In this document: positions 9,668-46,547 of the stretch, piece by piece
Numbering within the stretch: the first letter of the stretch is position 1
Layout: the number at the start of each line of letters is the position of its first letter
Source: Perkinsus olseni
Lineage: Eukaryota
Length of the DNA stretch: 50,648 bases
Direction of reading: 5' to 3'
NCBI GenBank assembly: GCA_013115125.1
Contig: JABANN010000224.1
Coordinates: 1-50,648, forward strand
Program-made: the position numbers and the translations under genes
The notes under the pieces: model-generated
What the model was told of the DNA's origin: nothing
The model's input: only the letters and a program-made list of their open reading frames with translations
Database searches by the model: none

Positions 9668-10110
9668 ATGGAAGAGGACGCCTTCGTAATAGTCAGCGCT
9701 AGTAACAGTCCAGCGGTGGTGTGTCTTCGCATCTCTTACGGGCTTCCTGATTCTGTTGTGGTCTGGAGTCCGGACTCTGGCCGCGTGTAGCATAGTCGAT
9801 CCTCACTATTGAGGTTGTAGGTGATACTGCCGCATCATGCGGCAGCACATGGCCCGAGTGTGAGGGATTCGTATACGAGATGCGCAGTGTCGGTTCCGCG
9901 TGGCCAGGGGATGTCATTGAACAAGCCCTTGGAGAAGGGAGGTCTGGCCGTCCGGGTTCGGACTGATTGTCTCGAGGGCCCCCAGCTCCCGAATCGAAGC
10001 GTCCCTTCGCTGGTTGCGGACACCCTCGCGAAGGATGACCCGACCTCCGAAGTTCTTCGGACCCTCCTCTGCAAGAATGATTGTTCTTTCATCAGATGCG
10101 GAATATTTTA
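9668..10110 (+). pseudogene. Chimeric relic of ZZ-family genes
   Basis: The start MEEDAF resembles the paralog C start (MKEDAF, 19761). 9830-10110 matches paralog E at about 40020-40280, with deletions. Confidence 0.6.
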
Positions 10111-11265: not shown

Positions 11266-11991
11266 CTATTTCATTGGGTTGAGAGCTAAGGTCCTCGTTC
11301 CTCCCCCTTGAAGATGCAGGTAGACCCTTTCTGGCGTAGCTGAGAGTACAAAAAAGGAAGGAGTACCTCCCGTCGGCAGGTCCGATCCTGGACAACTTTC
11401 CGCCACACCGCGGATGAAGCTTGCGTAGGTTGCATCAGCGCCAGGTAGAAAATTAATATTGGTTCTCTCGCCGACGATTAGATCACTGAATCGGCGGCCG
11501 TGGGAAGCATGTCTACATTCGAAGTCTAGAAACACGTCTGTAGGAGAGATCGTCAAAATCAATTTGAAACTGTCGTCTCCGTCATAGACGTATGTCCCCG
11601 GGACCAGAGGTAGGGCTCTTCTAGAAAATGTAACCTCTTCCCCTGCGAGTTGAGTCTTGAAAGAGGACTCGTCGTACGGAGACAGAACGGTCAATTCACC
11701 ATCTTGCATCTGGACTTCCGGGAAAGCATTAGTCATCACTCTCTCGAAGCGGCCGAAGTTTGGATATTCAACAGTGTAATCACCAGGTTCTCCTTCGACA
11801 GAATAGCCAATCTTGACCCTGACCGGTTGCTCGCCACGCCCCTCGAACTCCCACGACATAAAGCCATCCGACACAGAAGCTCGCATGTTGAGGGACGACG
11901 TTGACGCCACGTATTCTCCAACGAACTGAGCACTCGTAGTCACCAGAGCTAGAGCGGCGATGGAGAACCAAGTCGCAACGGGTTTTACCAT
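11266..11991 (-). CDS. Intronless secreted protein of the MVKPVATWF family, copy 1 (intact, 241 aa)
   Basis: Hydrophobic signal peptide MVKPVATWFSIAALALVTTSA/Q. Two beta-rich halves each open with G-x-Y (FVGEYV; VPGTYVY). Two conserved Cys in the second half. Five further copies occur in the window. Confidence 0.8.
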   Translation of the reverse strand: MVKPVATWFSIAALALVTTSAQFVGEYVASTSSLNMRASVSDGFMSWEFEGRGEQPVRVKIGYSVEGEPGDYTVEYPNFGRFERVMTNAFPEVQMQDGELTVLSPYDESSFKTQLAGEEVTFSRRALPLVPGTYVYDGDDSFKLILTISPTDVFLDFECRHASHGRRFSDLIVGERTNINFLPGADATYASFIRGVAESCPGSDLPTGGTPSFFVLSATPERVYLHLQGGGTRTLALNPMK

Positions 11992-17849: not shown

Positions 17850-18525
17850 TTATTTACACTGGAATTTGTTGAGAGCCAAGGTCCTCGTTTTGTGCCCTTG
17901 CAGATGCAGGTAGACTCTATCTTTAGTAGCTGAGAATACATAAAAGGAAGGAGTACCCCCCGTCGGCAGGTCAGATCCTGGACAACTCTCCGCCACATCG
18001 CGGATGAAGCTTGCGTAGTCTGCATTTGCGCCCTTTAAAAACTGAATGTTGGTTCTCTCGCCGTCCTCAAAATCACCGAATCGTTCTCCGCGAGCGGCAT
18101 CTCGAAATCTGATGTTCAGAAAGACGCTTGGAATATTCCCAGTATCCACCTCCAAGGTCACTTGCATGTCACCGTCGTCGAAGAGGTATGTACCCGGTCT
18201 CAGAGGAAGGGCCTTTCTGAGAAAGAATACCTCTTCCCCTTCGAGTAAAGTCTTGAAAAAGATCTCGTCGTACGGAGCCAAATGTTTCAAGTCGTCATCT
18301 CTTATTTGGACGCCCGGAAAAGTTTCAGTGATCAACTTTTTGAAGGGGCCGAAGTCTGAATGATCAACAGAGTAATCACCAGTCGAAGTCTAATTCGACG
18401 GAACCAGCAGACACAGAAGCTCGTATGGAAAAGGACGACGTAGACGCGAAGTATTCTCCAATGAATTGAGCGCTTGCAGTCACCAGAGTGTGGATTATGA
18501 GCCAAGTCGCGACGGTTTTCACCAT
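17850..18525 (-). pseudogene. Secreted family copy 3, frameshifted
   Basis: MVKTVATWL start at 18525. A deletion near 18380 splits the gene into ORFs 18376-18585 and 17850-18335. Confidence 0.75.
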
Positions 18526-19760
18526 TGGGAGAGTAGAGTAGTAGAAAAAAGTAGCTCTTAAAAATGAAGGAGCGCCCACGAGCAAATGAATTGATTCAGG
18601 GGGGTTCGTTATGTGCCTCAGAGAGAGCTGAGAAAAATAGCGGGAAGGATGATATGTGCAACTCGAAGCTTGTAGCCGATGTGACGGAAAGGAAACAATA
18701 ATCTATCCAGTTCGGTCCCTTTCCCGCTACCGAATAATCGATCACGCCGCACTGTCCGGGCTAGCTCGCACGCATAAACTTGGGCGCCACCCTTGCGCAC
18801 TGGTCATAGTAATTGAACGACATAACTACCCTGTCCGATTGAGGCAACTGGAAAGACAATGGCTGATAGTTTGCATACGGGCCGTAAAGATCATAGATCC
18901 CCAACCGCAGCATTTGCTACGCCGACACGCCGTGTCGGACACGGGGGAACAGGACATTTATGGAAAAAGTACATCGGGGGACAACCATGGGTACAACCGG
19001 CGTGACACCGGGGGTGACGCTAGTGAATGGGACATCTGGACCCGAACCTAGGGTCGTAGATCATGCCCCCGCTCGAGGCAATCCCCTATCGCCACGGGCC
19101 CTCCGTCGATGTACTACGGAGTGCACCTCTACCAGTGGCTTCTTGATACTAGTAAGTCTGGCGGGCGACCTCCACCAAGTTCCAGATAGGCTGCGTCCGC
19201 AAGTTTTGCACCCACTGTGACACCTGGTGACGACGTCACTGTCTTCCCGCCTCCATTGTCCCCATCCTGTCTCCTCTGCAACCTACGTCTTTGATAGCAA
19301 TCCCTCAGTTATCGGCTGACAGCACTCGTTTTTCTTAGCGTCTGAGGGGTAGGATACGGCTCAACGGTTCTGAATCGGAGCTATTCCAGGCAGTCCTCGA
19401 GTGAAGCAATCCTGGTCGGATTCGGTCCTTTATCAACAACCTATTGAGTATCATCCAATCGCGTATTTTCAAGACTTTTTACTCAACGAGTCAGCTAATT
19501 TCTCTTTACTTGCGCCTTTGTCGAGTTATCGTTTAACCATGTTTATTATGAGTAAAACCATCAGTTGTTCCGAACGAAATCCACTTTATCGAAGAAGTAC
19601 GTACGAGACCGGGCTTCTATTGGTGGACGCTTATCAGCGCTGTTGGCGTATTTCACGGAGCTTCCCACACTCTCGCATCGTGTTGAGTCGGAGAGGATGT
19701 CGCTTGCTGCTCTGCAACAAGTCCTATGGTCCAGGTCTTTCTCTCCGTTTCCTTTCCCAT

Positions 19761-25459: not shown

Positions 25460-26198
25460 TACTGGATTCTGTCGAGAGCCAAGGTCTTCGTTCGTAGCCC
25501 TTCTAGTTGCAGGTAGACTCTACTTGGCGTAGCTGAGAGTACAAAAAATGAAGGTTTCCCCCCCGTCGGCAGGTCAGATCCTGGACAATTTTCCGCCACG
25601 CCGCGGATGAAGCTTCTGAATCTGAATCTGAAGGGTCTGCATCTCCGCCAGGTAAAAACTGAATGTTGGTAGCTCCGCCGACGGTTAAATCACTAAATCG
25701 TTTACCACGACTTGCATCCGGGCATCTGAAGGTCATAAATACGCTGGCAGGAGTAATCCTCAAGGTCAATCGGAAGCTGTCTCCTTGGTCATAGACATAT
25801 ATACCTCCCCTCAGAGGTAGGCCTTCTCTAAAAAAGATTAGCTCTTCCCCTGCAAGTACAGTCTGGAAGGAGATCAAGCTGTACTGAGCCAGATCGGTCA
25901 AGTCACCGTCCTGCATCTGCACTTCCGGGAAGGCACTAGTGAACAAGCTTTTGAAGAGGCCGAAGTCTGGATAGTCGACAGTGTACTTATCAGAATCTCC
26001 TTCGAGAGGAAATTCAATCTTGATCGAGACCTTTGGCCCGGCACGCCGCTTGAACTCCCATATGAGGGAACCATCCGACACAGAAGCTCGCATCTTGAGG
26101 GTTGACGTAGACGCTGAGTAATCCCCAAGGGGCTGAGCACTCGTGGTCACCAGAGCCAGAGTGGCGATGACGAACCAAGTCGCGGCGGGTTTCACCAT
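25460..26198 (-). pseudogene. Secreted family copy 4, with a late frameshift
   Basis: MVKPAATWF start. A short repetitive insertion (TCTGAA repeats, about 25615-25635) moves the last quarter of the gene out of frame. It could still encode a 231-aa variant. Confidence 0.7.
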
Positions 26199-26943
26199 TG
26201 AGTGGAGTGGCTGTAAGAAAATCAGCTTCTGAAAATGAAAGAGGGCTAAACTTTAGCCCTCTTTCATTTTAGCCCCTTTAGCCGCTAAAGGGCATAGAAA
26301 TTGAATCAAGGGCCCTGATTCAGGGGGGAATCTCTTATGTGCCTCAAAGGAAGCTGAAGGAAATAGCGCAAAAGACCCTATGGATGTAATGTGCAACCCT
26401 AATCGGGTTACTCGACCCTTGTAGACGATGTGCGAAGCAGAGAAAAGAATAGTCTATCCAGTTTAGCCTGTCTTCTGCTCCTCAAAAATCGACCGCGTCT
26501 CACTGTACGGGCTAGCTCGCACGCATAAATTTGAGCGCCACCCCTGCGAACCGGTCATAGCAGTTGAGCAACACAACTGCTCTTCCTGGGTGAGACAACA
26601 GGGAAGACAATCGCAGGTAGTTTGCATACAGGACGCAAAGGTCATACATCCCCAGCCACAGCGTTTACTAGACCCGACACGAGGTAAAAGGACATTTATA
26701 GAGAGAGTATCGGGAGACAATGGTGGGTACATGTTTAGAGCTTCGGTCGGGACACTGGTTGACTCAAGAGCCATGGAATGAAAGAGTAGAAAAGTATATA
26801 GTTAATTAGTCAGTCTTTTATGCCGAGTATCTTGTGGCAGTTTCAACTGTGGCAGTTTCAACAAAGATACACTGAATTGGCGCTTGCCTTTGTGCAACAG
26901 CACAAACACGACGCCCCGAGATATATACATCATCATCATCATC

Positions 26944-29900
26944 TTAAGATTTAGAACTGCATAATAGCAGTAGAGGACTGGTGCAGATACCTGCAGGACC
27001 TCGTGGGAGAATCTCATCAGGTAGTTTTTTGAGCTTGTCCGAAGAGTGCCACGTACCATTCTCTAGTAGTATCCGGTTTCCTTCAACTTCCGAGACGACA
27101 TGAACTTGTCCGAGCCATGGTGGTGAAGCTTTGGGTTGTAGATCTGGAGCACGGACTAGTACTAAGTCGCCCACAGAGATCTCGTAGCTGTGACTGTTGT
27201 GCTTCTGCATGAGACGGAGGACACGAAGACGACAATCCGTCTTGTAGTTGCGCCACGTATCCCACTTAGTAGAAGGCAGTTGGACCACGTTGTTGTTGTC
27301 GAAGGGAGAGGTGTGAGACTCAGTAATCATATCCAGAGGGCATAGACCATTGGCCAGCATGTTGGTGGTGGTATTGATCTCGTAGGCAGCTCGAGAGATA
27401 GACTCACGCCACTTGTCATCATCTACGAAGGGAGTTGTCATGAACATACGACGTAACCTCTGATTCAATAATCGATGTCGAGCTTCTACGTGACCGTTCA
27501 TCCACGAAGCAGACCTCGGCACAAACTGGAAGTCGACGGACACCATAGCTTTGGATGCCACATGAATGGTTGATGCATTATCCGTGCGGATGTTCTGGAT
27601 AGCATGGTTGTACAGTCGATGAGGAAGGTTACAGGCACGTTGGATGTCCACGGAGGTAGGGGCTTTGACAGTAGGGTAGCATAGCAAGATGTTGGTCAGT
27701 TGATCAACCAAGTTGATGGAGTAGAACTTGCCTTGCCTTGTTGCTGGATCAGTTACATAAGGACCGAGAACATCTAGGTTGACAACCTGGAAGGCGAAGT
27801 CAGGGATGTTAACAACATCAGCTGTAGGGTTCTTAGGCCTGTTGTCACCGGGGTTAGTCTTGGTCATCAAACAAGCCATACAGTCACGGGATGCCGTTCT
27901 GGCGATGTCATCAATGTCGATGCCAGTAGTTGCAAAGTAGCTTCTCAGTGTTGTTGTAATCTCTGGAGCACCGCCGTGTCGTAGACTATGGAGATGTTTG
28001 GCACATGACACTAAGAAGTCATGGTCAGCAGTCAGGCGTAGGTTACCGTCATCTGACAGTGGTAGGGACCGATAAACTTGTAGTAGATCAGCAGGAAGTT
28101 GTACAGTATCATACGGTGTAGTAGGTGCAGTTGGTAGAGGCTGTAGTGGGACTTCAATAGGCTCTTCAAGTCTGGTCTTCTTCTGCGGCAGAGATGCATT
28201 GTTGGAGTCGTCATCTCTCTTGCGTACGATTCGGGCAACATGTACTTGTTGAGAATCATCAGTGATGGGTAAAGGTTGCACAGTGTAGCTGTCCAAGGTA
28301 TCACGGGCAGTGACTATGTCGACGTAGAGCTCAGACCGCGTCCCCGCATCAGCTTTGTTGAGCTCGGTAGGAGTGAACTCGACGTCGAAACGTCTCGACT
28401 TCATCAAGTAGTGAATGAGGTCGATGATACGTTGTAGTAGAACGGACTGTTTGCCGTTAGAAGCGACCTTGGCCGACGACAGGGCAGCATTCGCAGTCTT
28501 GTTGTCTCCTCGCAAGAGGATGGACTTGAACTGCTGTCGAGTGTCGACCTCGTAGTTGACCAGAATGCAGAGCGCATTGTACGCTGTGGTGAGCTCACGT
28601 ACATTAATATGAAGGGACCGTTCTTGCCGAGACCAGGGCCATTGATGTCTGAATATTATGCAGCCGTTCTGCTCAGCAACCATAGCACCCATCTGGTCGG
28701 AAGCATCGAACCATATAGTTACAGGGATAGAAGGATCTATATGTCGGCGAAGTGGTAGGGGTGGAGTTGACCTGACCAGCTCTTGCCATCGGACTAGTAG
28801 TTGCAGTGTGGAGTCGTCGATGACTGTCTTCTTCCAAAGAGCTTTATGTACTGCCCTAGCTCGAGATACCAGCGCAGTCAAGGCGTTCTTACATGGAAGA
28901 ATATGCCATCCGAAAAGATCCCATGCTTGTGATAGTTGACCAAGGAAGCTTAGTGCAGAGCTGTAGGTGGTGGGCTTCGTAAGGTCATAGTTAGTGCACT
29001 TCTCGTACTTGGCAGTAGGGAATATGATAGAGTCGCCATTGTCGACTATCATAGATCCCAGGATGGTCGTGCCGTTGGAAGCAGGGCCGTGTAGGGGCTC
29101 AGCAACTAAGATCATGTTGTACTCAGCAAAGTGGTTTATGACTGTTTGAAGATCATGATTGGGGTCAGTGTCGGTGAAGTAAAGAACCAAGACATCATCC
29201 ATGTAGCTGACGGCAACGTGTTCAAAGCCAGGGAGCTTGTGTAGTTCTCGCAGTACATGATTGACACACCATTCCAGCACCTTGGCATTAATAGAGCTGC
29301 CGTCCAACATATAGAGGTAGGTCAGAGTAGAGCCACGAACATGGACTTGTGACAGAAGCTGGGCGTTTTTTCCCAACCTGATGGAGCGGTAGCTGTCCTT
29401 GACGTCAAGTAGAGATGCTGTTTTCGCACTCCTGTACTTATTGAGGATCCGTGAGATCTTAGATTGACAGTCACGGATAGGATAATGGCGTTGGACTTGC
29501 CTCAGTAACTGGTTGCTGCAGATTGATGGTACCACGGGGCGGCATCGCTTTCGACCCTCCACAGGATACCAAGGAGAGGCGTAGTTGTTGACAGAGTGAG
29601 CAGGAGTGGCGACGACCTTGTTGGTGTTGAGAAGATCGTCGAACCTAGCCTCGGCCTCACGACGAACACGACCGTCAGATTTGAGGAGACGGTAGTGAAC
29701 CTTGGTAGCTTCAGGTGGTTGGTTTTGTAGTGCTAGCTGTAGCAGTTCATTGCTGTAGTCGACCATGAACTGCTTGTTGTTGTCCTCGTCTTTGATGGTT
29801 AGTATCCTACACCATTGATTGGAGTAGACGTGTTGGTCGATGACAAAACCATCATCAAGCGGTGGGAATGTAGGAGGCGTTGTTAAGGCTTCTTTAACAT

Positions 29901-31839
29901 TGTAGTCGACGTCACCCTTACGCTTGATCTTCACGGCATTGTTAGGGGCTGTTGTGGATGCCGGCGGAAGCAACTCACAGGGTGGAGCAACTGATGCCGT
30001 TGGTAGTGGTGTAGTAGAAGTCGTTGGGATTGGAGAGTGTGAGGTCTCAGATGGTGAGGCTGCAGAGTTCGATCTGGGCAGTTCACATGTTACCGGAGAT
30101 AGCGATGAAGGTACGCTACCAGTAGAGATCTGGGGAGGTACAGATCTGAAGAATAGAGATGCCAGTGCATCTTCACCATCCTTGAATCGTAGTAGTAGTC
30201 CTTGTCGGTCAAACCGAAGCGCATCCATTCCAAGTAGGGCATCGGAATGGATGAGCGGAGTCTGTAGCACCGCAGGACGCCATGGTAGAATGTGTGTGGC
30301 GTTACCATCGTAAACTGGTAGGTCTACTTGAAGGCAGTAGTCGCAGGAGAAAGACTTAGCTTCAGTAGCACTGTCGAATGTAGCGTGAAACGACAGAAGT
30401 TGAGCGCCCTCGACAGTTTTGACGATGAAATCAGCCAGCTTCTTTGAGATGAGAGACATGGTAGACCCAGTATCAGGAACAATCGTAAAGCCTTCACATG
30501 CTGGACAATTGAGGATTGTCACAGAGTCGGCATTAGGCGTTGTTGTTGGGGTAGTCGGTGCTGTCATCCTTGACACTTCAGTAGTGTGCTTGTAGGGGCA
30601 GGAGTCACCGTTCTTACACGATTGGCGAGCAAGGTAGGCCATGCATATCCTCTTCTCCTTGCAGAGTTTGATGACTTCGGGATCTTCGATCCGTTGTAGC
30701 CTTGTGGTAGTTGGATTGGTAGACTGGATAGGGGCTACCGAGGATGTTGATGTTGTTGAGTTTGACGTTGTTGTTGAGGTAGTCGTAGCGGTTGGAGTGG
30801 TAATAGCAGTTGTCGGAGGGGGGTTGGCTTCTTGGTAGTACTGTAATGCCATCGCAAGCTCGGTGACATCACGGATATTGGAGTATTGCTGATTGCAGAC
30901 TTTTCGCAGATGGGGAGTTAGGCCTCTCTTGAAGTAGTCGAGAACTTGACTGGCATGGAGATATAGGCCAACCGAGTTCGCCATGGAGATGGAGCTCTCT
31001 AGGGTATCCAAGTAGTCATGCACCGATACACTTTTTGATGCCATTTTGATAGCCGATAGATGCCTGGTTATCCTGTCATGGTCGTTGGTGGTAGCAAAGT
31101 GAGCTTGTAGGAACTCTAGAGCCGTCGTGAACATCAGCTCGTAGTTAGACATGAAGGCCTCAGGAGGAAGCGCGCGCTCTAGATGATCCATGAGCTTCAG
31201 TTTAGGACCTTGGCCTAAGCAGCGGCATAGATAGAGATAACAACCATGAGCACTGAGGGCATTCTGTCGGCATTCTTGTCTCGCAACCATGATGACATAG
31301 TTAATAGCACGCCCATCCTTGAAGCCGAGAAACTCACGACCGTCAGGTAGGCGTAGATTGGAGATGGAGGTCAGCAGTTGTGTGTGACTGGTTGTGGGGC
31401 TCGTCGTCGTATGGGTAGTGCTGGCTATAGTGGTAGTAGTCGGCTTGATTCCCCAAAAACTGAGATTGGTAATCTTGTCATTGAGAGTGTCAGCATGAGT
31501 GAGAGGTAGAGTTGAAGTAACAGTGGATTTAGTGGATGAAGTGAATGTTGAACTAGGGATAGAAGTAGTAGATGTCCGTGCCAAAGAAACCGACTGTGCC
31601 TGGCGTAGTTGGGAGCGCAGGTTTTGATAGAGTTGTCGGTATTTGACCTTAGTGGGAATGTCGACCTCTTGTTGGGTCATGATAGTTCCGAGCTCCGAAC
31701 GCTCGAGGTAGAGCAGGCAGCTCGCAGTGGGTAGTTGTAGAAGTTGAAGTAGTTCAGTAGTGGTTGAGTCATCAGTGAGTCCGTGGTTCTCCGCCATGTT
31801 TAGAGCTTCGGTCGGGACACTGGTTGACTCAAGAGCCAT
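26944..31839 (-). CDS. Single gag-pol polyprotein (1631 aa): gag, CCCH finger, aspartic protease, RT, RNase H, DDE integrase
   Basis: CCCH C-x8-C-x5-C-x3-H at 30586-30645. Protease VPDTGSTMS at 30466-30474. RT LDVKDSYRSI and SYMDD (29194-29205). RNase H WFDAS...HINVREL...GDNKT...NKAD. Integrase H-x3-H...CMAC, VNLDVLGP, IRTDN, NGHVE, and a C-terminal VGDLVLVR...WLG. Confidence 0.95.
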   Translation of the reverse strand: MALESTSVPTEALNMAENHGLTDDSTTTELLQLLQLPTASCLLYLERSELGTIMTQQEVDIPTKVKYRQLYQNLRSQLRQAQSVSLARTSTTSIPSSTFTSSTKSTVTSTLPLTHADTLNDKITNLSFWGIKPTTTTIASTTHTTTSPTTSHTQLLTSISNLRLPDGREFLGFKDGRAINYVIMVARQECRQNALSAHGCYLYLCRCLGQGPKLKLMDHLERALPPEAFMSNYELMFTTALEFLQAHFATTNDHDRITRHLSAIKMASKSVSVHDYLDTLESSISMANSVGLYLHASQVLDYFKRGLTPHLRKVCNQQYSNIRDVTELAMALQYYQEANPPPTTAITTPTATTTSTTTSNSTTSTSSVAPIQSTNPTTTRLQRIEDPEVIKLCKEKRICMAYLARQSCKNGDSCPYKHTTEVSRMTAPTTPTTTPNADSVTILNCPACEGFTIVPDTGSTMSLISKKLADFIVKTVEGAQLLSFHATFDSATEAKSFSCDYCLQVDLPVYDGNATHILPWRPAVLQTPLIHSDALLGMDALRFDRQGLLLRFKDGEDALASLFFRSVPPQISTGSVPSSLSPVTCELPRSNSAASPSETSHSPIPTTSTTPLPTASVAPPCELLPPASTTAPNNAVKIKRKGDVDYNVKEALTTPPTFPPLDDGFVIDQHVYSNQWCRILTIKDEDNNKQFMVDYSNELLQLALQNQPPEATKVHYRLLKSDGRVRREAEARFDDLLNTNKVVATPAHSVNNYASPWYPVEGRKRCRPVVPSICSNQLLRQVQRHYPIRDCQSKISRILNKYRSAKTASLLDVKDSYRSIRLGKNAQLLSQVHVRGSTLTYLYMLDGSSINAKVLEWCVNHVLRELHKLPGFEHVAVSYMDDVLVLYFTDTDPNHDLQTVINHFAEYNMILVAEPLHGPASNGTTILGSMIVDNGDSIIFPTAKYEKCTNYDLTKPTTYSSALSFLGQLSQAWDLFGWHILPCKNALTALVSRARAVHKALWKKTVIDDSTLQLLVRWQELVRSTPPLPLRRHIDPSIPVTIWFDASDQMGAMVAEQNGCIIFRHQWPWSRQERSLHINVRELTTAYNALCILVNYEVDTRQQFKSILLRGDNKTANAALSSAKVASNGKQSVLLQRIIDLIHYLMKSRRFDVEFTPTELNKADAGTRSELYVDIVTARDTLDSYTVQPLPITDDSQQVHVARIVRKRDDDSNNASLPQKKTRLEEPIEVPLQPLPTAPTTPYDTVQLPADLLQVYRSLPLSDDGNLRLTADHDFLVSCAKHLHSLRHGGAPEITTTLRSYFATTGIDIDDIARTASRDCMACLMTKTNPGDNRPKNPTADVVNIPDFAFQVVNLDVLGPYVTDPATRQGKFYSINLVDQLTNILLCYPTVKAPTSVDIQRACNLPHRLYNHAIQNIRTDNASTIHVASKAMVSVDFQFVPRSASWMNGHVEARHRLLNQRLRRMFMTTPFVDDDKWRESISRAAYEINTTTNMLANGLCPLDMITESHTSPFDNNNVVQLPSTKWDTWRNYKTDCRLRVLRLMQKHNSHSYEISVGDLVLVRAPDLQPKASPPWLGQVHVVSEVEGNRILLENGTWHSSDKLKKLPDEILPRGPAGICTSPLLLLCSSKS
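31779..31796 (-). promoter_or_regulatory. Putative primer-binding site
   Basis: TGGCGGAGAACCACGGAC directly follows the CA end of the 5' LTR. It is complementary to a tRNA-like 3' end ...GTCCGTGGTTCTCCG-CCA. The cognate tRNA was not identified. Confidence 0.65.
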
Positions 31840-33095
31840 GGAATGAAAGAGTAGAAAAGTATATAGTTAATTAGTCAGTCTTTTATGCCGAGTATCTTGT
31901 GGCAGTTTCAACTGTGGCAGTTTCAACAAAGATACACTGAATTGGCGCTTGCCTTTGTGCAACAGCACAAACAGTACAACCGGCGTGACACCGGGGGCGA
32001 TGCTCACGAATGGGACATCTGGACCCGAACCTCGGGTAGCAGATCATGCTTCCACTCGAGGCAATCCCCTATCGCCTCCGCCGCCGATGTACTACGGAGC
32101 GCACCACTACCAGTGACTACTACATACTAGGAGTCTAGTGGCCGACCTTCACCTACTTCCGGGTAAACCCCGAGTGGTATGGCACCGAGCACGTGCACGC
32201 CCGGGGGCGCACGCCAATGGCGTGACGCCATAGCTAGTAGCCCACGCCCGAGACTGTCAGCGACGGGTGACGTCGCGACAAGGGTGACCCCCCGCGCTCA
32301 TCTGGCCTTTCACTCTCAGCTCTGTCATAGATCCCCAATCGCAGCGTTTACTCCGCCGGCACGGGGGGAAAGCACATTTATGGGAAAAGTGCATCGGGAG
32401 ACAACGAAGGATGCAACCGGCGAGACACCGGAGGCGACGCTAGCGAATAATCTAGCTTAAAAGGCGCCAGCTTTCCGACTACGGAGCTTCAACTCTGTCC
32501 ACCGAAGCTTTACCAGAGTGGATCGCATTGAACGCGCAAGAGTTTTACCGGGGGAGGCTTCCCCAGCTCAGGAGGTGCGAAAGGACCTGTTGGGCACGTG
32601 TGGTCAGGCAGTGCCCAGCGGGCACCAGGAGGTGATGCATAACAACTTCTTCCCGATTAGCCCGAGCTTCCACGGACCTCGTGTTGAGGAGCAGTGCTAC
32701 GTAATCCAAGACAGTCTGCGAGCACCTAGGAGGCCTTCCCCGGATTGGCTTTGCGGAAAAGTGCGCGGACCTTTCCATGCATCCAAGAGGATCGACTAGA
32801 TCGAGTATTCGGATAGACAACCTGAACATTCACGGAGCCATAGCATCCGAGATGCTGCATCTCGGAACTTGTCACTTTGAGAGTAACTTGCTGTATCGAC
32901 ATGCATATACTTGATCGCATGGCCCATTTTCGACAGTTCCCGTTTTGTCCTCGCGGTATGCTCCCCTCAGAGGAACCCTCTTGGTAGATCGTGGCGTTTC
33001 GTGGAGACCACGTCGCGCATTGCCAGTTAAAGTAGGCGGTCGAGTCTCCTACGGAGCTCAAGGCTGAGCACAGGCCGTCAACACATAACACAGGC

Positions 33096-33767: not shown

Positions 33768-34493
33768 TCACTCGACTCTGTCAAGAGACAAGATCCTCGC
33801 TCCCTCGTACGCTTCTACTCGCAGGTAGACTCTATCCGATGTTGCTGAAAATACAAAGAAGGCAGGAGTACCCTCCGTCGGCAGGTCAGATCCTGGACAA
33901 CTTTCCGCCACATGGCGGATGAAGCTTGCGTAGCCTCCAGTTCCGCCACGTAAAATCTGAAGATTGGATGACTCGCTGACGATTAAATCACTGAAGCGCT
34001 GCTCGTGAACGGCATCTGTACATCTGAAGGTCATAAGTACGCTGTCAGTAATCGTCAAAGTCAAATGGAAACTATCTCCTTGGTCATAGCCGTATATACC
34101 CGGCCTCAAAGGCAGGGCTTTTCTGAAAAAATACAATGCTCTTCCTGTAAGTGAAGTCTTGAAGAAGAGCTCGTTGTACGGAGCCAGATTGGTCAAGTCA
34201 CCATCCTGCATCTCCACTTCCGGGAAGGCAGTAGTGACCAATGTCTTGAAGCGGCCGAAGTCTGCATAGTTAACAGTGTAATTACCAGACTTCCCAAGGA
34301 GAGGGAACTCAATCGATATTGAGAGCTTTGGCCCACTACGCCGCTCGATCTCCCATAAGAGGGAACCATCCGTCACAGAAGCTCGTACGTTGAGGGTCTT
34401 CATAGTCGCCAAGTATCCTCCGATGAACTGAGCACTCGTAGTCACCAGAACTAGCGTGGCGATGATGAACCAAGTCGCGACGGGTTTCACCAT
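33768..34493 (-). CDS. Secreted family copy 5 (intact, 241 aa from MVKPVATWF)
   Basis: Signal peptide and colinearity with copy 1 over the full length; ATG at 34493. Confidence 0.8.
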   Translation of the reverse strand: MVKPVATWFIIATLVLVTTSAQFIGGYLATMKTLNVRASVTDGSLLWEIERRSGPKLSISIEFPLLGKSGNYTVNYADFGRFKTLVTTAFPEVEMQDGDLTNLAPYNELFFKTSLTGRALYFFRKALPLRPGIYGYDQGDSFHLTLTITDSVLMTFRCTDAVHEQRFSDLIVSESSNLQILRGGTGGYASFIRHVAESCPGSDLPTEGTPAFFVFSATSDRVYLRVEAYEGARILSLDRVE

Positions 34494-35199
34494 TGACGAG
34501 AGTGGAGTAGCTGTGTTCAAAAGTAACTTCTGAAGCTGAAGGAGTGCTGGTGAGCAAATGAAGTGAATCGGAGGGGTCTGGCATGCGCCTCAGCGAAAGC
34601 TGAGGCAAGTAGCGAAGAAGACGCTGAGAACGTGATGTGGAATTCCAAAATTCCAGCTGATGTGAGGCAAAGGAAAGAATAATCTACCCAGTCCAGCCTT
34701 ATTTCCGCTACTCAATAATCGATCGCGTCTCTTTCTGCGGGCTAGCTCGCACGCATAAACTTGTGCGCCACCCTTGCGGAGAGGACACAGCAATTGGACG
34801 GCATAACTTGCCGTTCCGAGTGGGTCAACGAGAAAGACAATCGCAGCTAGTTTGCATACAGGATGCATCATACCCGGCCGCAGCATTTGCTTCGCTGACA
34901 CGGAGGGAAAGGACATTCATATAGGGAGCATCGGGAGGCAGGGACGGGTACAACCCGGCGAGGCACTGGGGGCGACGCTGGGAGACGGGACATCTGAACC
35001 TGGACCTAGGGCGGCCCTAGTAGGGCCGCAGATCATGCCCCCACTCGAGGAAATCCCCTCTCGCCTCGTCCGCTAATGCACTACGGAGGACACCGATTAC
35101 CTAGTAAACATTACTATGTGCTGGATATCTGTGCCATTCATGAGTCTACTCGGCAAGTGGGGCCGCCTTTGCCAAGCTACAGGATATCACATTAGCGAG

Positions 35200-36639: not shown

Positions 36640-37195
36640 AACTGAATATTGGTCCATTCGGAACTGCATATCGGGAAGGTTGCAGCGGCGACGATCAACT
36701 CACTGAATCGCTGAGCGTGGGTGGCATCTGCACACCTGGCATCTGCATACGCTCGTTGTAGTCGTCACGATCGTCAAGAATGTACTCGAGACCAGTGCTA
36801 CGGCTCTTCTGAAAAAAAATATCTTCTTCTCCGAGTAGAGTCCTGAGAAGGTTATTTTATGCGGAGCCAGATCGATCAAGACAGTGACTTGAAGCCAACA
36901 TCTTGCATCTGGGCTTCCGGAGAAGCACTCGTGACCAATATCCTAGAGCGGTCGGAGTCTGGATAGGCAACAGTGTAATTGCCAGAATCTCCTGTGAGAG
37001 GGAAGTCAATGAGACTTTTAGCCCGACGCTTCGGTCGAACTCCCACGGTAGGGAACCATCCGACGCTGACGCTCGCATGTTGAGAGATGACGTAGGGGTT
37101 GATAATCAACCGTTGATTGACCCCAAGAACTTTTTACTTGCAGTCACTAGAGCTAGAGTGGCGATGAGGAAGCAAGTCTCGACGAGTTTCACCTT
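36640..37195 (-). pseudogene. Secreted family copy 6, heavily degraded
   Basis: Start ATG changed to AAG (KVKLVETCFLIATLALVTAS). Fragments MRASASDGSL and FPLTGDSGNYTVAYPD lie in different frames. Confidence 0.75.
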
Positions 37196-37251
37196 CGAGA
37201 GAGTGGAGTGGCTGCATGAAAATTAGCTCCTTGAAATGGAGGAGTGCTGAA

Positions 37252-37716
37252 TTCAATTCAAACTTTATTGCCTGGGCGTTACAAGCTCAAATCTTATCGC
37301 CCATCACACGACCCGCGCAAGCGGATCCCGATATGGTTAGACCCAACCATAGAGCTGTAAAACAACATAGGTTAATCAATCTTTCATCATCAGCTCGGAG
37401 GCTCTTTAGAGGAACTTCATCACAACTCCGTCGTGCAGCCAGTCAGGACGAGGAGGGAGGCATGCTACACTGGGCAGCCTACTAGGCATGAGGTAGAAAG
37501 AAAGTGAAAAGAGGATCAAGTAGGCCCAGGACCAACAACTGCGATTGCGGAAACCCAGATGAGTAGATGGTGAGAATTTGTGTAGTAAAGGAGGGCCCAA
37601 CCAATACCGAGTCACCAGCAAGGGGGACGTGTGGGTATGGCAGGTTCGATCTCTACTTCGTACTGGGAAACCCCGGCCACCCTCACGCGACGTTGACGCG
37701 TAGAGACCTGTGAGGG
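37252..37716 (-). mobile_element. 465-bp non-autonomous non-LTR retroposon (SINE/SIDE-like) with a 5' ribozyme
   Basis: 11-bp direct repeat GGAGTGCTGAA at 37241-37251 and 37717-37727; the paralogous promoter at about 34541 has GGAGTGCTG once, with no insert. The 3' end on the - strand reads AATAAA-GT-TTGAATTGAA. Three stem-loops lie near the 3' end and an HDV-like fold at the 5' end. Confidence 0.85.
37648..37716 (-). ncRNA. HDV-like self-cleaving ribozyme (predicted)
   Basis: - strand parse: P1 CCCUCAC, A, P2 GGUCUCUAC, P3 GCG, L3 UCAACGU, P3' CGC, P1' GUGAGGG, P1.1' UG, P4 GCCGGG-GUUU-CCCAGU, J4/2 A-CGAA, P2' GUAGAGAUC. This is the full nested double pseudoknot. The C75-equivalent is at 37660. 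Confidence 0.85.
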
Positions 37717-39393
37717 GGAGTGCTGAAGAGCAAGGGGGAGGATTCTGTTATGTGCGTGTTACTCATTATGCGCCGATCGTCTTGTGCATGCGTGCATAGC
37801 TTGTTCTCCTCGAGAGAGCGAGCTTAGACTGAACAAGCGGAGCCCGTCGCTTCGCTCCGGAGTCGCTTCGCTCCAATGGCAGCGGCGGCGCTCTCAGCAG
37901 AAATGTTGTGCAGTTAAGCGTAAGTGCAGGAAAGTGTGAATTCTTCACGCGCGATGTAGTGAATGAGTAGAGTTCTTATGAGAGATGAAGAGAGGGAATG
38001 TGAACGTACCGGCTTAATGAGGAAGCTGTGGAGTTGATTGAGACGTATGTCAATTACGGGAAGATATAGAGATGGAACTGCGACAAACTTCTCGAATGTG
38101 AGTATTTCACGCACGATTATGTTGAGCTCAAATAGAAGAATTAATAGAAGTATTAATTAGTACAAACCTTGGACAATCGGAGCCTTCGATGGCCGATGCA
38201 GTTTCGGGCGCGCGCGAAAAAGCGCAAGATATGCAAGAGTGACAAGAATATAGGCTTTGCTCCATTCCCATAGACCCCGGGCATGAGCACCGAAACCCAC
38301 AGAATAATTCCCGGGGGTGGGGGGAGTTATAGAATAGACTCTCAAAACCGACCACCCTGTTCTTGTTTACGGAGCTTCAACTTGTCCATCAGAGTGGACT
38401 CTATTGAACGCGCCACAGTCTCCCCCAGCTCAGGAGGTGCGAGATGGTTCGCCGCCGACGACCCAGCTCAGAAGGGAACCTTCCGATGAATCGTCGGACG
38501 CGCGTGCCCGCGTACGAGATCGCAAGGTCATGCGTAGCAACTTTTTCCCGATTGATACGAGCTGCCACGGGACGCGTGTTCAGGAGTACTGTCACATAAT
38601 CCAAGGCAGTTCGCGAACACTCAGAGGCCCTCGCCTCAATCGGGAGTCCCGATTGGGTATCAGGAAAAGTGCGCGGGCCTTCTTCATTCTCGAGTCGTGG
38701 ATTCTCTCCACCTTTCCTTGCAACCAAGGGTATCGAGTATTCGGCTAGACAACCTGGAAAATCAGCGACGACATCGCATCTCGGAACTTGTCACTTCGAA
38801 AGTAACTTGACGTATCGGTATATGCCTCTCAGAGGAACCCTTACGAGTGATCATGTCGCCTCGTAGTCACCGCTTCGTCTGTCGTTAGTTGGAGTGGGCG
38901 CCGCCCACTGGGCGGTCGAGCCTCCTAAGGTTGTCAAGGCTGAGCACGGGGTGTATGACGGGTCTGAGAGATGAACGCTCCCATGATGCTTCGTTCAGTT
39001 GAGTGCGTGTATGCTACTTCTCATAATTTTGATAGGATCTCTCTCCATCATTGTCCTTCTGATTCTATTTATCAGCTCAGAATCAGCCCGATGGCAATGG
39101 ACTTCTCTCGAGTGACGATTCTTGAGTTTATCATCGACCCGAGCGGCCAAGCCTAGGATGTCCCATCCGGGACCACCGGTCAACGACTTGTACTCCAGTC
39201 GGTACGGCCTGTTGATGGGGCATTCGCCGGTTGTGACAGCGCTAGCTTTATGGTCATCTAGCATTGTGTGTACTTGTATCCCTAACGGGCTTCCTGGCTC
39301 TGTTGTGGTCGGGTAAGTGTAGCCTAGCCGATGCTTATTATTGAGGTTGTTGTCGTAGGGTGTGGTGGATGTCGTAGGGTGTGGTTGGTCATC

Positions 39394-43691: not shown

Positions 43692-46547
43692 ATGGCGAAT
43701 CCTGCCGAGGATACAGGCGGTGGTGACCCGAGCTCAGAGCAAGCTGCTCGACCTTCCCCGAGCTCCGACCCTGTGACTATACTGACTGCCAAGGGCACTG
43801 AACGGTCCGACCGCGCCATAGCTCTTTCTTCCCTGCTGATCTCCATCAACAGGGGCCGGATGTCTCTTCTAGAGCTCGTCCAGCAGCTGCAGTCCAAGCT
43901 GGTGAGTGAAGACTCTGGTGTGCGGCGGCTGGCGGTGGAGCTCCTGTCCGACGTCATCGAGAGATTGCCGAAACTACCACTTGGCACAATGCAGGTGAAG
44001 ACGGTTGGTCGGTTTTTCGTGGACAAGCTTGAAGACTGGGTCTGCATCGAGTTCGCCTTGAAGGGGCTCATCGGCCTTCTCACTAATCATGGCCGTAAGC
44101 TTGCGACCGCTAAACTGACGGTAGAGGAGATCAAGAAAGAAGAAGACACCGATGACTACATCGGTATGCTGTTGACAGGGGATGAGCGATTCGAGGGACA
44201 AAACGGAGCTCCGCCTCCCGCCTTCCACTGCGAGATTTTCCTTCACCTCATTATTAAGCACGTATTGCTCTACGTCAACGCGCCCTCTCAAAGCCAGCCT
44301 GTTCGGTATGCTGTACTCAAGCTGTTGGAGCTGGTCATAGGGCAGCCTGAGCTCCGAGAGGAGGTCATCAACTCGACATCGGTGGCGAAGGTCCTGGCTC
44401 AGGGCGTAGTCATGGAGTGTGAGGACGAGAGGGACCCAAGGAACCTTCTGTTGGCCTTCGAGCTTCAACGAGAGGCCATGTGCTTCTACGCAGAGCATTT
44501 GAAGGGTCTTCAGGCGAACCATAATAATGATGAAGAATATCCCGATGGTGGGTTCGAACCTGCGACCGACCTCGGCAATTTCGCGCAGATCGTCTTCGAG
44601 GCTGCTACAGTGTATTTTCCCGTCAAGTTTCAGCAGCGGGACACTGACGTGGCGGACATCTCTCAGGAGAAGCTCAGTCGGGCCCTTTACAATGTGCTGT
44701 TCGAGAGCGAGGAGGCCATGGTCCGTCTAGCGATGCCCTCCCTTTTGGATATCCTGGCCAACCCCGAGGATGAGCTCAGCATGCTCACTGCGCAGCGGTA
44801 CATCAGTGAGGCTATCGTCACTAGTCCCTACAAGGACCTCATTGCCAAGGAGTACTCCCGAAGGACTTTTTCGGTTTGCCTCGATCAAGTTACCAAGGAG
44901 ACCGCGCCCCTGAAGTTCCTGCTCTGCGAACTCTGGCTGGCGTTTGTACGAGAGACGGGGGCTAGGAACTGCAAGGATGCAGTAGAATCGCTTCTCTTCA
45001 TGTTCGCAAAGTCCGGTGAATCCGACGATGAGCCCAAGGCCGCTGGAGTGCAGCAACTCCTCCTGGCCAGCGGCCGGGGTAGCTTCGAGTTCTACGATGA
45101 GATTACAAGCCGCGCTATCGTAACACTCTTGAGCTCACCGCAGGCCGTGGAAGAGGACAAGCATGGTGTAGTTGACTTTTGCATGAAGTTCCTCAGTGAA
45201 GGCAGCATCTGTGACGAGGGCCTTGCTGAGCAGGTGGCTGAATGCCTACTCAAGCTGCCCGATAAGGATATCCACCTGGCGTTGGCTGCAGTAGTTCCAG
45301 CCTGTAGTGCCGACTCGCTCGTCGTGAGCAAGGCTATGAAGCTTGCCATCAGCCGTCGTTGGACGAGTGTTGTGAAGAAGGCCTACCCTCGACATCCTAA
45401 GATCACGCTGGAAGAAGTCGTCCCAGCACTGCAGCAACGAGCTGATCAGTCAAGTGACATGTCCTGTGCGATCGTGGCACAGATTTTTGCCGACCATCCG
45501 GCCGAAGCCATATCCCTGCTGAGCACGGTTGGCGTGGCTGATATTGCTAGGTCGAGGGAATGGCCCGAAGATGCTCTCAGTTTTCTAGTGGACAACCTAC
45601 CTGAGGTGGCGACCTGGCCGTGGCCTCTTATTGTAGCCAGTCCTATTAATGAAGGCTCTTTGGCCTCCCTAGCATGCAGGCTGGCAGACGCCAATCAGCC
45701 CATGTGCCAGAAGGTGGTATCTTTGGTTGAGTCTAATCCTCGAAGGTTTGCCGGTCTGCTCGCTGGCCTTCCTCAAGAGGAGCTTCCTGAGTGCCGGGTG
45801 TCGAACTGGTCTACTCTGTTCAAATCGGTGGTGATTGATCCCCCAGCGGCCCTGAAGGTTCTCGAGGTATGCCCTGACGATGCATTTGATGCGTGCTTGG
45901 CATCAGCCTTAGTCAAGGATGCTGACCCCATCATCTGGGCCACGGTGATGAAGGTCGGGATCGAGCGTGACCGGTCGAGGACGATAGAGCTAGGCAAAAG
46001 CTCGATGGCAATAGCGGGACTCAAGAGACTCTTACACAGCAACACAGTTGAGTTGGACGAGGCCGAAAGGAAAGCAATCGTCTCCGGTTTGTACGACCCG
46101 TCGGCAGATCGGGGTGTCGCCATGTGCTTGCTCAGCGCACTGGACACCCCAGATCTCGAGACATATGGTGAAGAGCCCAGGCGGTCGATGCTGATGGGCC
46201 TGAAGGAAGGTGCAGGCGAGGCCTTCGTCTTTGCTTGCAAGTTGTTCCTTCGACTACTCTCGAGACCCCTTCTCCGAGCGGACTCCCAGAGCGTCATCCC
46301 GGCCCTCTGCGACAAGCTCGAGTCCGACGACAGCCGACCGCTCACCGCAATATCTGCCTGCCAGTGTCTCTATAAGATTGGTAAAATGAGCGACTTAGCG
46401 GAGCTCATTCCCAAGCAGTACTACCAGAGAGTTTTCCACGCATTGAAGCAGCCGTTGGCCCACCATAAGATGGTCGTGAGACGGCAGGCCACCATAACGT
46501 ACGGTGTCTGGATGTGCGCCCAAGTGGACGGGTTCTGCGAACGATGA
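43692..46547 (+). CDS. MMS19: MMS19/MET18 homolog (cytosolic Fe-S assembly targeting complex), 951 aa, intronless
   Basis: SLLELVQQLQSKLVSEDSGVR, ERDPRNLLLAF, FE...YFPVKF, and C-terminal HHKMVVRRQA...W match MMS19 N- and C-terminal HEAT-repeat motifs. Confidence 0.85.
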   Translation: MANPAEDTGGGDPSSEQAARPSPSSDPVTILTAKGTERSDRAIALSSLLISINRGRMSLLELVQQLQSKLVSEDSGVRRLAVELLSDVIERLPKLPLGTMQVKTVGRFFVDKLEDWVCIEFALKGLIGLLTNHGRKLATAKLTVEEIKKEEDTDDYIGMLLTGDERFEGQNGAPPPAFHCEIFLHLIIKHVLLYVNAPSQSQPVRYAVLKLLELVIGQPELREEVINSTSVAKVLAQGVVMECEDERDPRNLLLAFELQREAMCFYAEHLKGLQANHNNDEEYPDGGFEPATDLGNFAQIVFEAATVYFPVKFQQRDTDVADISQEKLSRALYNVLFESEEAMVRLAMPSLLDILANPEDELSMLTAQRYISEAIVTSPYKDLIAKEYSRRTFSVCLDQVTKETAPLKFLLCELWLAFVRETGARNCKDAVESLLFMFAKSGESDDEPKAAGVQQLLLASGRGSFEFYDEITSRAIVTLLSSPQAVEEDKHGVVDFCMKFLSEGSICDEGLAEQVAECLLKLPDKDIHLALAAVVPACSADSLVVSKAMKLAISRRWTSVVKKAYPRHPKITLEEVVPALQQRADQSSDMSCAIVAQIFADHPAEAISLLSTVGVADIARSREWPEDALSFLVDNLPEVATWPWPLIVASPINEGSLASLACRLADANQPMCQKVVSLVESNPRRFAGLLAGLPQEELPECRVSNWSTLFKSVVIDPPAALKVLEVCPDDAFDACLASALVKDADPIIWATVMKVGIERDRSRTIELGKSSMAIAGLKRLLHSNTVELDEAERKAIVSGLYDPSADRGVAMCLLSALDTPDLETYGEEPRRSMLMGLKEGAGEAFVFACKLFLRLLSRPLLRADSQSVIPALCDKLESDDSRPLTAISACQCLYKIGKMSDLAELIPKQYYQRVFHALKQPLAHHKMVVRRQATITYGVWMCAQVDGFCER

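What the first reader, a model, noticed from the sequence alone, without database searches (positions are those of the whole stretch)
37648..37716. HDV-like ribozyme whose predicted cleavage site is exactly the 5' end of a short retroposon
Seen in sequence: on the - strand, 69 nt fold into the complete HDV topology. P1 has 7 bp, P2 has 9 bp (one GU), P3 has 3 bp, L3 is the 7-nt UCAACGU keeping the U20/G25 equivalents, P4 is short, and J4/2 is CGAA. P1.1 is a compensatory variant (CA/UG instead of the usual CC/GG), which argues against a chance fold. The first P1 base (37716) directly abuts the target-site duplication, so the inserted RNA began at ribozyme position +1. Established knowledge: HDV-like ribozymes process the 5' ends of R2, RTE and trypanosomatid L1Tc/ingi-family retroelements. 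Inference: this is a ribozyme-released retroposon family in a Perkinsus-like alveolate, which I do not know to be described. Self-cleavage would free the element from read-through host transcripts. Caveat: position 1 is a C-G pair rather than the preferred G-U, so this copy may cleave slowly.
Basis: partly seen in the sequence, partly recalled or inferred. Interest (0 to 1): 0.92.

Follow-up and report, generated by a model that had tools for sequence, protein, structure and literature searches.

The report
Ribozyme-headed short retroposon in Perkinsus
A 465-base mobile-element copy in a Perkinsus (oyster and clam parasite) genome begins exactly with a sequence that fits the full fold of an HDV-like self-cutting RNA, a known trick of retroposons that I did not find reported for this group of organisms.

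Summary
On the minus strand, 37716..37648 forms every HDV-like element. These are P1 (7 bp), P2 (9 bp, one G-U), P3 (GCG/CGC), L3 (UCAACGU), a two-pair P1.1 (C-G, A-U), a short P4 and J4/2 (CGAA). My descriptor hits only this site in the window and none in 384.6 Mb of shuffles.

The 465 nt from 37716 to 37252 are a real insertion. A 9-11 bp duplication flanks it, and a paralogous gene copy holds the empty site once. There are no inverted ends.

Public-run contigs show a multicopy family. Two contigs diverge exactly after 37716 and four at the 3' end, which is a (GAATT)n tail. The commonest family variant restores a 5-bp P4.

The host is Perkinsus, closest to P. olseni.

The C1-G37 pair has an active precedent in L1TcRz of Trypanosoma cruzi.

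Against: no Rfam HDV family matches, no partner LINE lies in the window, and no RNA 5' ends could be seen. Cleavage is therefore inferred, not shown.

Verdict: a new member of a known kind.

The parts
37717..37727 (-). Upstream copy of the target-site duplication. It reads TTCAGCACTCC on the minus strand; the certain core is CAGCACTCC, 37725..37717.
   Evidence: Direct repeat D1 and sequence. Paralogue 34549..34541 holds this 9-mer once where both flanks meet.
37648..37716 (-). HDV-like ribozyme, 69 nt. The predicted cut is 5' of 37716, the element's first base.
   Evidence: All pairs listed. Only descriptor hit in the window. 0 hits in 384.6 Mb of shuffles.
37710..37716 (-). P1 5' strand (positions 1-7, CCCUCAC). 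It pairs with 37686..37680.
   Evidence: seven Watson-Crick pairs. No variant at 5% or more in the family.
37700..37708 (-). P2 5' strand (positions 9-17). It pairs with 37656..37648. A8 at 37709 is J1/2.
   Evidence: eight Watson-Crick pairs plus one G-U.
37687..37699 (-). P3 (GCG/CGC) enclosing L3 (UCAACGU, 37696..37690). L3 holds the U...CG equivalents of U20, C24 and G25. Its C22 and A23 form P1.1.
   Evidence: The L3 motif U19/C23/G24 is part of the published descriptor (PMC6326823).
37678..37686 (-). P1 3' strand (GUGAGGG, 37686..37680), followed by U38 and G39 (37679..37678), the 3' side of P1.1.
   Evidence: A23-U38 and C22-G39.
37661..37677 (-). P4 region (positions 40-56). It is short in this copy. 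In the commonest family variant A53 is G (37664 T>C on the + strand), which gives CCGGG/CCCGG, 5 bp.
   Evidence: for this copy. table 3: 37664 T>C at 1011.4 of 1469.2 in X1 and 34.4 of 34.4 in X2; 37671 C>A falls in the P4 loop.
37657..37660 (-). J4/2, CGAA, with the presumed catalytic C57 at 37660.
   Evidence: It fits CRRA (PMC6326823). C57 and A60 carry the same numbers in the C. briggsae ribozyme (PMC13635239). The only family variant here is G58>A, which still fits CRRA.
37260..37647 (-). Body of the retroposon. No recognisable coding capacity and no tRNA-like part. An AATAAA lies at 37269..37264.
   Evidence: Depth in X1 is several-fold to about 50-fold above the flanks.
37250..37259 (-). 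3' tail, GAATTGAATT. Other copies carry at least one more GAATT unit.
   Evidence: Loose ends at 37250 in 3 X1 contigs and 1 X2 contig, whose unlike part ends in GAATTC (table 7).
37241..37251 (-). Downstream copy of the target-site duplication. 37250-37251 overlap the tail, so the duplication is 9 to 11 bp.
34541..34549 (-). Empty target site in a paralogous gene unit: a single CAGCACTCC.
   Evidence: The upstream flank aligns to 34588..34541 and the downstream flank to 34549..34468.
36857..37190 (-). Decayed copy of a secreted-protein gene family, just downstream of the insert. Its ATG is now AGG and the reading frame is broken.

Best explanation
Window 37716..37252 (minus strand) is one copy of a multicopy, non-autonomous, non-LTR-type retroposon of a Perkinsus genome. 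Its first 69 nt encode an HDV-like double-pseudoknot ribozyme.

Proposed mechanism:
1. A copy is transcribed as part of a longer host or read-through transcript.
2. The ribozyme folds and cuts immediately 5' of C1 (37716), using C57 (37660) as general acid. This frees an RNA that starts at its own first base and still carries the ribozyme.
3. A reverse transcriptase/endonuclease supplied in trans by an unidentified LINE primes on the (GAATT)n tail. It copies the RNA to its 5' end at a new staggered nick, which makes a 9-11 bp duplication.

Shown here: the fold, the insertion, the duplication, the multicopy family, and the common 5' end at +1.
Inferred: catalysis, read-through transcription, and the trans-acting partner.
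For: - Fold: all helices and core residues are present. It is the only descriptor hit in the window, with 0 full hits in 384.6 Mb of shuffles and 0 of 21 natural core look-alikes with P1 and P2.
- Insertion: direct repeat at both ends, paralogous empty site, and 0 inverted repeats in 37230-37740.
- Multicopy family: X1 depth is 1380-10946 inside the element, against 97-240 in the bins 37100-37234, 37721-37747 and 37829-37900. 20 of 24 listed runs from 11 studies hold part of it.
- Common 5' end: two X2 contigs run on into unlike sequence right after 37716, with agreement 0.58, meaning different flanks. A 552-nt X2 contig ends at 37716.
- Common 3' end: loose ends at 37250 in 4 contigs.
- Variants: 3 of the 18 listed variant sites in the element lie in the ribozyme. 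None touches P1, P2, P3, L3, P1.1 or C57/A59/A60. One (A53>G, the majority form) completes P4. By my own arithmetic, the chance that all 3 fall in the 19 non-core positions of 69 is about 0.02.
- Precedents: L1TcRz cleaves before C1 and has G37 in a G-C-rich P1 (PMC3185411). P1.1 with a U:A pair occurs in a fast ribozyme (PMC13635239). L3 and J4/2 fit a published descriptor (PMC6326823).
Against: - No Rfam HDV-type family matches, at gathering score or at E up to 10 on 551 nt and on 86 nt.
- The +1 pair is C-G, not the G-Y of the published descriptor, and one P1.1 pair is A-U, not C-G.
- No helix shows a compensatory change, because the paired positions do not vary among the copies seen. Covariation support is therefore nil.
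- The ribozyme is not more conserved than the body: 3 variants in 69 nt against 15 in 396 nt.
- No autonomous partner is in the window. The one RT gene is an LTR element with no similarity to the insert.
- RNA 5' ends could not be examined: raw RNA runs X23 and X24 gave 0 and 1 laid reads.
- Only 2 contigs document the shared 5' end, and 50 further loose ends were not shown.
- This particular copy has a weakened P4 (A53).
Confidence: 0.75

Rival explanations
1. The element is a retroposon, but its 5' end is set by transcription initiation from an internal promoter. The HDV-like fold is then an inactive relic, or is too slow to matter.
For: - A constant 5' end at +1 is equally expected from a fixed start site.
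- In L1Tc the same 77 nt are both a promoter and a ribozyme (PMC3383444 abstract; PMC3185411 discussion).
- The +1 pair is C-G, not G-U.
- There is no Rfam hit and no covariation.
Against: - Every core residue and helix is intact in all variants seen.
- The majority variant improves P4.
- A full match is not expected by chance, so the fold must have been selected at least in the family's founder.
- C1-G37 is active in L1TcRz.
- The two roles are not exclusive.
Confidence: 0.17
2. The fold is a chance match at the end of an unrelated repeat.
For: - The descriptor was written after seeing the site.
- The nested MFE is not unusual (z = -0.57).
- No Rfam family matches.
Against: - 0 full matches in 384.6 Mb of shuffles, and only 55 core matches.
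- 0 of 21 natural sequences with the same 21 core bases pair in P1 and P2.
- The match starts at exactly the base where the insertion starts.
Confidence: 0.04
3. The segment is not a retroposon but a DNA transposon, a solo LTR, or a local duplication artefact.
For: 9-11 bp duplications also occur with some DNA transposons.
Against: - No terminal inverted repeats.
- A simple-repeat 3' tail that varies in unit number between copies.
- Strand-specific structure.
- Different flanks in other copies.
- A clean empty site.
Confidence: 0.03

Closest known systems
L1TcRz / Pr77 at the 5' end of L1Tc and its short derivative NARTc (Trypanosoma cruzi; ingi/L1Tc clade, also SIDER)
   Same: - An HDV-like ribozyme makes up the first roughly 70-77 nt of a non-LTR element and of its non-autonomous short form.
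- The cut falls before base +1, so the ribozyme is inherited by each new copy.
- The +1 base is C, with a G-C-rich P1 ending at G37 (PMC3185411).
- The host uses spliced-leader trans-splicing (for Perkinsus: PMC3101222, abstract only).
   Different: - Different eukaryotic supergroup.
- L1TcRz has a one-pair P1.1, while this one has two pairs.
- This element ends in (GAATT)n. From memory only, L1Tc/NARTc end in poly(A).
- Promoter activity is unknown here.
- Sequence homology to Pr77 was not tested, because I had no reference sequence from a tool.
R2, RTE and Baggins ribozymes and their non-autonomous derivatives in metazoans
   Same: A 5' HDV-like ribozyme frees the element from a co-transcript. 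Non-autonomous SINE-like derivatives keep it (review PMC6765202; R2 paper PMC3774820).
   Different: - R2 is site-specific in 28S rDNA and has long J1/2 inserts.
- Those hosts are animals.
- The tail and target here differ.
- No coding partner is known for this element.
Minimal cellular HDV-like ribozymes (CPEB3, C. briggsae)
   Same: - Compact size, about 69 nt.
- Catalytic C at position 57 and A60 in J4/2.
- A P1.1 that is not CC/GG (PMC13635239).
   Different: Those are intronic or of unknown role, not element heads. They start with G by the published descriptor.

Membership tests
HDV-like (double-pseudoknot) self-cleaving ribozymes | P1 helix of about 7 bp beginning at the cleavage site | tested here: met
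   Seven Watson-Crick pairs, 1-7/31-37.
HDV-like (double-pseudoknot) self-cleaving ribozymes | P2 helix crossing P1, closed by J4/2 | tested here: met
   9 bp, 9-17/61-69, with one G-U.
HDV-like (double-pseudoknot) self-cleaving ribozymes | 3-bp P3 with an L3 carrying U...C-G (U20, C24, G25 equivalents) | tested here: met
   GCG/CGC with L3 UCAACGU. The motif is as in PMC6326823.
HDV-like (double-pseudoknot) self-cleaving ribozymes | P1.1: L3 positions 2-3 pair with the two bases after P1 | tested here: met
   C22-G39 and A23-U38. Non-CC/GG P1.1 is known in active members.
HDV-like (double-pseudoknot) self-cleaving ribozymes | Catalytic C heading a CRRA/CNRA J4/2 | tested here: met
   CGAA at 37660..37657. 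The family variant CAAA also fits.
HDV-like (double-pseudoknot) self-cleaving ribozymes | G at +1 paired with a pyrimidine (G-U wobble in HDV) | tested here: not met
   C1-G37. This is not a strict requirement of the class: active L1TcRz has C1 and G37.
HDV-like (double-pseudoknot) self-cleaving ribozymes | Mg2+-dependent self-cleavage giving a 5'-hydroxyl product | not testable with these tools
Raw RNA runs gave 0 and 1 reads.
Rfam HDV-type sequence families (HDV ribozyme, CPEB3 and the like; names from memory) | Covariance-model score at or near the gathering threshold | tested here: not met
   No such family is listed at gathering score, or at E up to 10 on 551 nt or on 86 nt. I do not file this RNA under any Rfam family. 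These models omit the pseudoknots and are narrow.
Ribozyme-headed non-LTR retroposons | Insertion flanked by a target-site duplication, with an empty site elsewhere | tested here: met
   9-11 bp repeat and paralogous empty site at 34549..34541.
Ribozyme-headed non-LTR retroposons | Many copies with different flanks and a common 5' end at ribozyme +1 | tested here: met
   Depth excess in X1. Two X2 contigs diverge right after 37716 and one contig ends there. This rests on few contigs.
Ribozyme-headed non-LTR retroposons | 3' tail of poly(A) or a short tandem repeat; no LTRs or inverted ends | tested here: met
   (GAATT)2 here and at least 3 units in other copies. 0 inverted repeats.
Ribozyme-headed non-LTR retroposons | An autonomous LINE that shares the ends and supplies RT/endonuclease | tested here: inconclusive
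   None in the 50.6-kb window. The only RT gene is an LTR element without similarity to the insert. No whole genome was available.
Trypanosomatid Pr77 hallmark family | Sequence homology to the 77-79-nt hallmark | not tested
   No reference sequence was obtainable from a tool. Only 'starts with C1, G-C-rich P1' is known from passages.

The most novel reading that the evidence does not exclude
Perkinsus carries an active family of short retroposons that free themselves from host transcripts with an HDV-like ribozyme. This would be the first such system in alveolates. It would have arisen in parallel with, or be distantly related to, the L1Tc/NARTc Pr77 system of trypanosomatids, another lineage that relies on spliced-leader trans-splicing. 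Like that system, it may double as an internal promoter or as an aid to translation.
Probability: 0.45. Interest if true: 0.6.

Novelty: new member of a known kind. Interest (0 to 1): 0.5.

Why it matters
It would extend ribozyme-processed retroposons from animals and trypanosomatids to an alveolate parasite.

It adds a natural HDV-like ribozyme with a C-G pair at the cleavage site and a C-G/A-U P1.1. It also offers a second lineage in which trans-splicing and long read-through transcripts may favour self-releasing elements.

In practice the 69-nt head gives a precise marker for annotating this repeat family in Perkinsus genomes, and for finding its coding partner.

The mechanism itself is established, so this fills a taxonomic gap and does not add a new principle.

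Tried and rejected
- Whole-genome search: no genome is held for this window.
- Other copies in the window: none. BLAST of the element and its flanks found only the neighbouring gene family.
- Rfam: nothing relevant.
- Link to the 1631-aa RT gene (26944..31839): rejected. It has 179-bp identical terminal repeats, a weak integrase match, and no similarity to the insert.
- Metagenome scan with a 23-nt core: 0 hits.
- Metagenome scan with a degenerate core pattern: 21 hits, 0 with P1 and P2. All are taken as chance.
- Raw RNA runs X23 and X24: 0 and 1 reads laid, so there was no test of RNA ends.
I draw nothing from it.
- Protein atlas for taxonomy: uninformative beyond 'eukaryote'.
- Earlier findings of this scan: three look-ups, all empty.
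- Coding capacity of the insert: only stop-free frames without known features. Not pursued.
- Ruminski et al. 2011 (PMC3308841) is not held.
- I did not fold the majority variant in a script. The effect of A53>G on P4 was reasoned by hand.

Full report
**1. The observation**

Read on the minus strand, window 37716..37648 is a 69-nt stretch. Ribozyme position p corresponds to window coordinate 37717 - p. A script listed every proposed pair:

- P1: 1-7 with 31-37, seven Watson-Crick pairs.
- J1/2: A8.
- P2: 9-17 with 61-69, eight Watson-Crick pairs and one G-U.
- P3: 18-20 with 28-30 (GCG/CGC).
- L3: UCAACGU.
- P1.1: C22-G39 and A23-U38.
- P4: short, G43-G45 with C50-C52, plus C41-G54.
- J4/2: CGAA, with C57 at 37660.

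The bases upstream of +1 (...ACUCC) cannot extend P1 against U38.

**2. Is it more than chance?**

I wrote an HDV-like descriptor with these requirements:
- P1 of 7 bp.
- J1/2 of 0-3 nt.
- P2 of at least 5 bp.
- P3 of 3 bp.
- L3 of 7-8 nt with U at position 1 and C-G at positions 5-6.
- Two Watson-Crick P1.1 pairs.
- J4/2 of CNRA.

Results:
- It hits one site in the window on both strands, 37716.
- A looser version also returns only that site. It allows one P1 mismatch, a one-pair P1.1, L3 of 6-9 nt and a longer P4.
- The full descriptor gave 0 hits in 300 dinucleotide-preserving shuffles, 30.4 Mb.
- It gave 0 hits in 3797 shuffles, 384.6 Mb.
- The core alone gave 55 hits in 384.6 Mb, about 0.014 per window.
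- As a natural-sequence control, 21 metagenome stretches share the P3-L3-P3 sequence, the UGG and the CGAAG. Of these, 0 have a matching P1 and P2.

Two cautions apply. The descriptor was written after I saw the site. The ordinary nested MFE is not unusual (z = -0.57), which is expected because P1 and P2 cross.

Rfam gives no HDV-type match at gathering score. It gives none at E up to 10 on 551 nt or on 86 nt. I therefore place the RNA in the HDV-like class by fold, not in any Rfam sequence family.

**3. The ribozyme heads a real insertion**

TTCAGCACTCC lies at 37727..37717 and again at 37251..37241.

The sequence downstream of the insert is the 5' leader and signal-peptide start of a secreted-protein gene family. 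The family has four other copies in the window, all on the minus strand. The copy next to the insert is decayed: its ATG is now AGG and the frame is broken.

Both flanks of the insert were aligned to paralogue 34588..34468. They meet and overlap there on a single CAGCACTCC at 34549..34541. This is an empty site, and it fixes the duplication at 9-11 bp.

The insert has no inverted ends, no tRNA-like part and no evident coding capacity.

**4. It is a family, and other copies start at +1**

- The element's sampled words occur in 20 of 24 listed public runs from 11 studies, 7 of them with at least half of the words.
- X1 holds this very locus. A 99-nt contig covers 37687..37785 with 0 differences, and a 712-nt contig covers 37100..37279 with 0 differences.
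- In X1, summed depth is 97-240 in the bins 37100-37234, 37721-37747 and 37829-37900, but 1380-10946 inside the element. The tool warns that this is not a copy number.
- In X2, two contigs run on for a median of 255 unlike letters immediately after 37716, with agreement 0.58, which means different flanks. A 552-nt contig ends at 37716.
- At the other end, three X1 contigs and one X2 contig diverge at 37250. Their unlike part ends in GAATTC, so other copies carry at least one more GAATT unit than the two seen here.
- Fifty further loose ends were not shown, so the count of independent 5' junctions is a lower bound, and a small one.
- One X1 contig lacks 37341..37596, which points to a shorter subfamily.

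**5. Variation**

One search lists 20 variant sites, 18 of them inside the element and 3 inside the ribozyme:
- 37671 C>A is G46>U, in the P4 loop.
- 37664 T>C is A53>G.
- 37659 C>T is G58>A, at the second position of J4/2, which the CNRA/CRRA motif leaves free.

A53>G is the majority form, at 1011.4 of 1469.2 in X1 and 34.4 of 34.4 in X2. By hand, it turns the C42/A53 mismatch into a pair, so P4 becomes CCGGG/CCCGG.

No listed variant touches P1, P2, P3, L3, P1.1, C57, A59 or A60. The chance that three variants all fall in the 19 non-core positions of 69 is about 0.02. This is my arithmetic and a post hoc test.

Against the reading:
- Paired positions do not vary, so there is no covariation evidence at all.
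- The ribozyme is not less variable than the body (3 in 69 against 15 in 396).

**6. Organism and context**

The MMS19 gene at 43692..46547 is 94% identical to a Perkinsus olseni protein, 81% to P. marinus and 76% to P. chesapeaki. The window is therefore from a Perkinsus close to P. olseni.

The only reverse-transcriptase gene in the window is at 26944..31839. It has a CCCH finger, RVT_1 and a weak integrase match. Identical 179-bp terminal repeats lie at 31973..31795 and 26908..26730, and it has no similarity to the insert. It is an LTR element, not the partner.

**7. Comparison with what is known**

- In T. cruzi, L1TcRz occupies the first 77 nt of L1Tc and NARTc. It cleaves before C1 and has G37 in a triple G-C end of P1 (PMC3185411, passages). 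Its P1.1 has a single pair.
- A published descriptor fixes G1-Y, CC/GG in P1.1, U/C/G in L3 and CRRA in J4/2 (PMC6326823, passages). This RNA meets the last two and departs in the first two.
- The fast C. briggsae ribozyme has a U:A and a C:U pair in P1.1, and its catalytic C is C57 (PMC13635239, passages).

**8. Is it in print?**

- 'HDV-like ribozyme' with 'Perkinsus': 0 papers.
- 'Perkinsus' with 'ribozyme': 2 papers, whose titles and abstracts (a riboswitch survey and a Bacillus anthracis typing paper) show no bearing on the question.
- 'Perkinsus' with retrotransposon terms: 11 papers. I opened one, which describes DNA transposons of P. marinus.
- An alveolate/HDV-like search listed nothing relevant among the 15 shown.
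- A further search, 'Perkinsus' with 'transposable elements', 'genome assembly' and 'repeat' from 2018 on, held 16 papers; none of the 12 listed concerned Perkinsus repeats or ribozymes.

The searched library omits most subscription papers. Ruminski et al. 2011 is not held, and supplements were closed. Hit lists of the structure-based searches could already contain Perkinsus entries.

**9. Verdict**

The fold and its position at the first base of a duplicated, multicopy insertion are real. The best reading is a ribozyme-headed, non-autonomous non-LTR retroposon (confidence 0.75). Catalysis, read-through transcription and the trans-acting partner are inferred.

The main rival is that an internal promoter sets the 5' end and the ribozyme is idle (0.17). 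The two are not exclusive, as L1Tc shows.

It is a new member of a known kind. Interest is moderate (0.5).

Noticed in passing
window 26730-31973 (minus strand): LTR-type retrotransposon with identical 179-bp terminal repeats (31973..31795 and 26908..26730). It has one 1631-aa ORF with a CCCH finger, RVT_1 and a weak integrase match. It sits inside the tandem gene array, and its flanks match contiguous sequence in paralogous units.
   Followed up: partly
window 11266-11991, about 18400-18650, 25503-26198, 33768-34520, 36857-37190 (all minus strand): Tandem family of secreted proteins of about 230-250 aa, with a conserved signal peptide (MVKPVATWF...) and a conserved 5' leader. No Pfam match for three of them. 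The copy next to the insert is a pseudogene.
   Followed up: partly
window 37617-37627 and 37729-37739: Exact 11-nt repeat (AGCAAGGGGGA on the + strand), once inside the element and once in its upstream flank, 112 nt apart. It may be chance (roughly 0.03 by my estimate) or may relate to target choice.
   Followed up: no
window 37341-37596: One X1 contig joins 37340 to 37597, skipping 256 nt. This suggests a shorter subfamily of about 210 nt that keeps the ribozyme head and the 3' part.
   Followed up: no
window 37748-37828: The upstream flank is itself multicopy in X1 and X2 (depth 1400-2600 in X1; loose ends at 37756, 37801 and 37828). Part of it is homologous to the intergenic region of paralogous gene units.
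   Followed up: partly
window 50568-50639 (minus strand): tRNA gene, the only Rfam match at gathering score in the window (55.8 bits).
   Followed up: no
window 37193-37716: A 552-nt contig of run X2 (a different organism label from X1) carries the same junction of element and downstream gene leader, with 7 differences. The same insertion, or a duplicate of it, therefore exists in a close relative.
   Followed up: no
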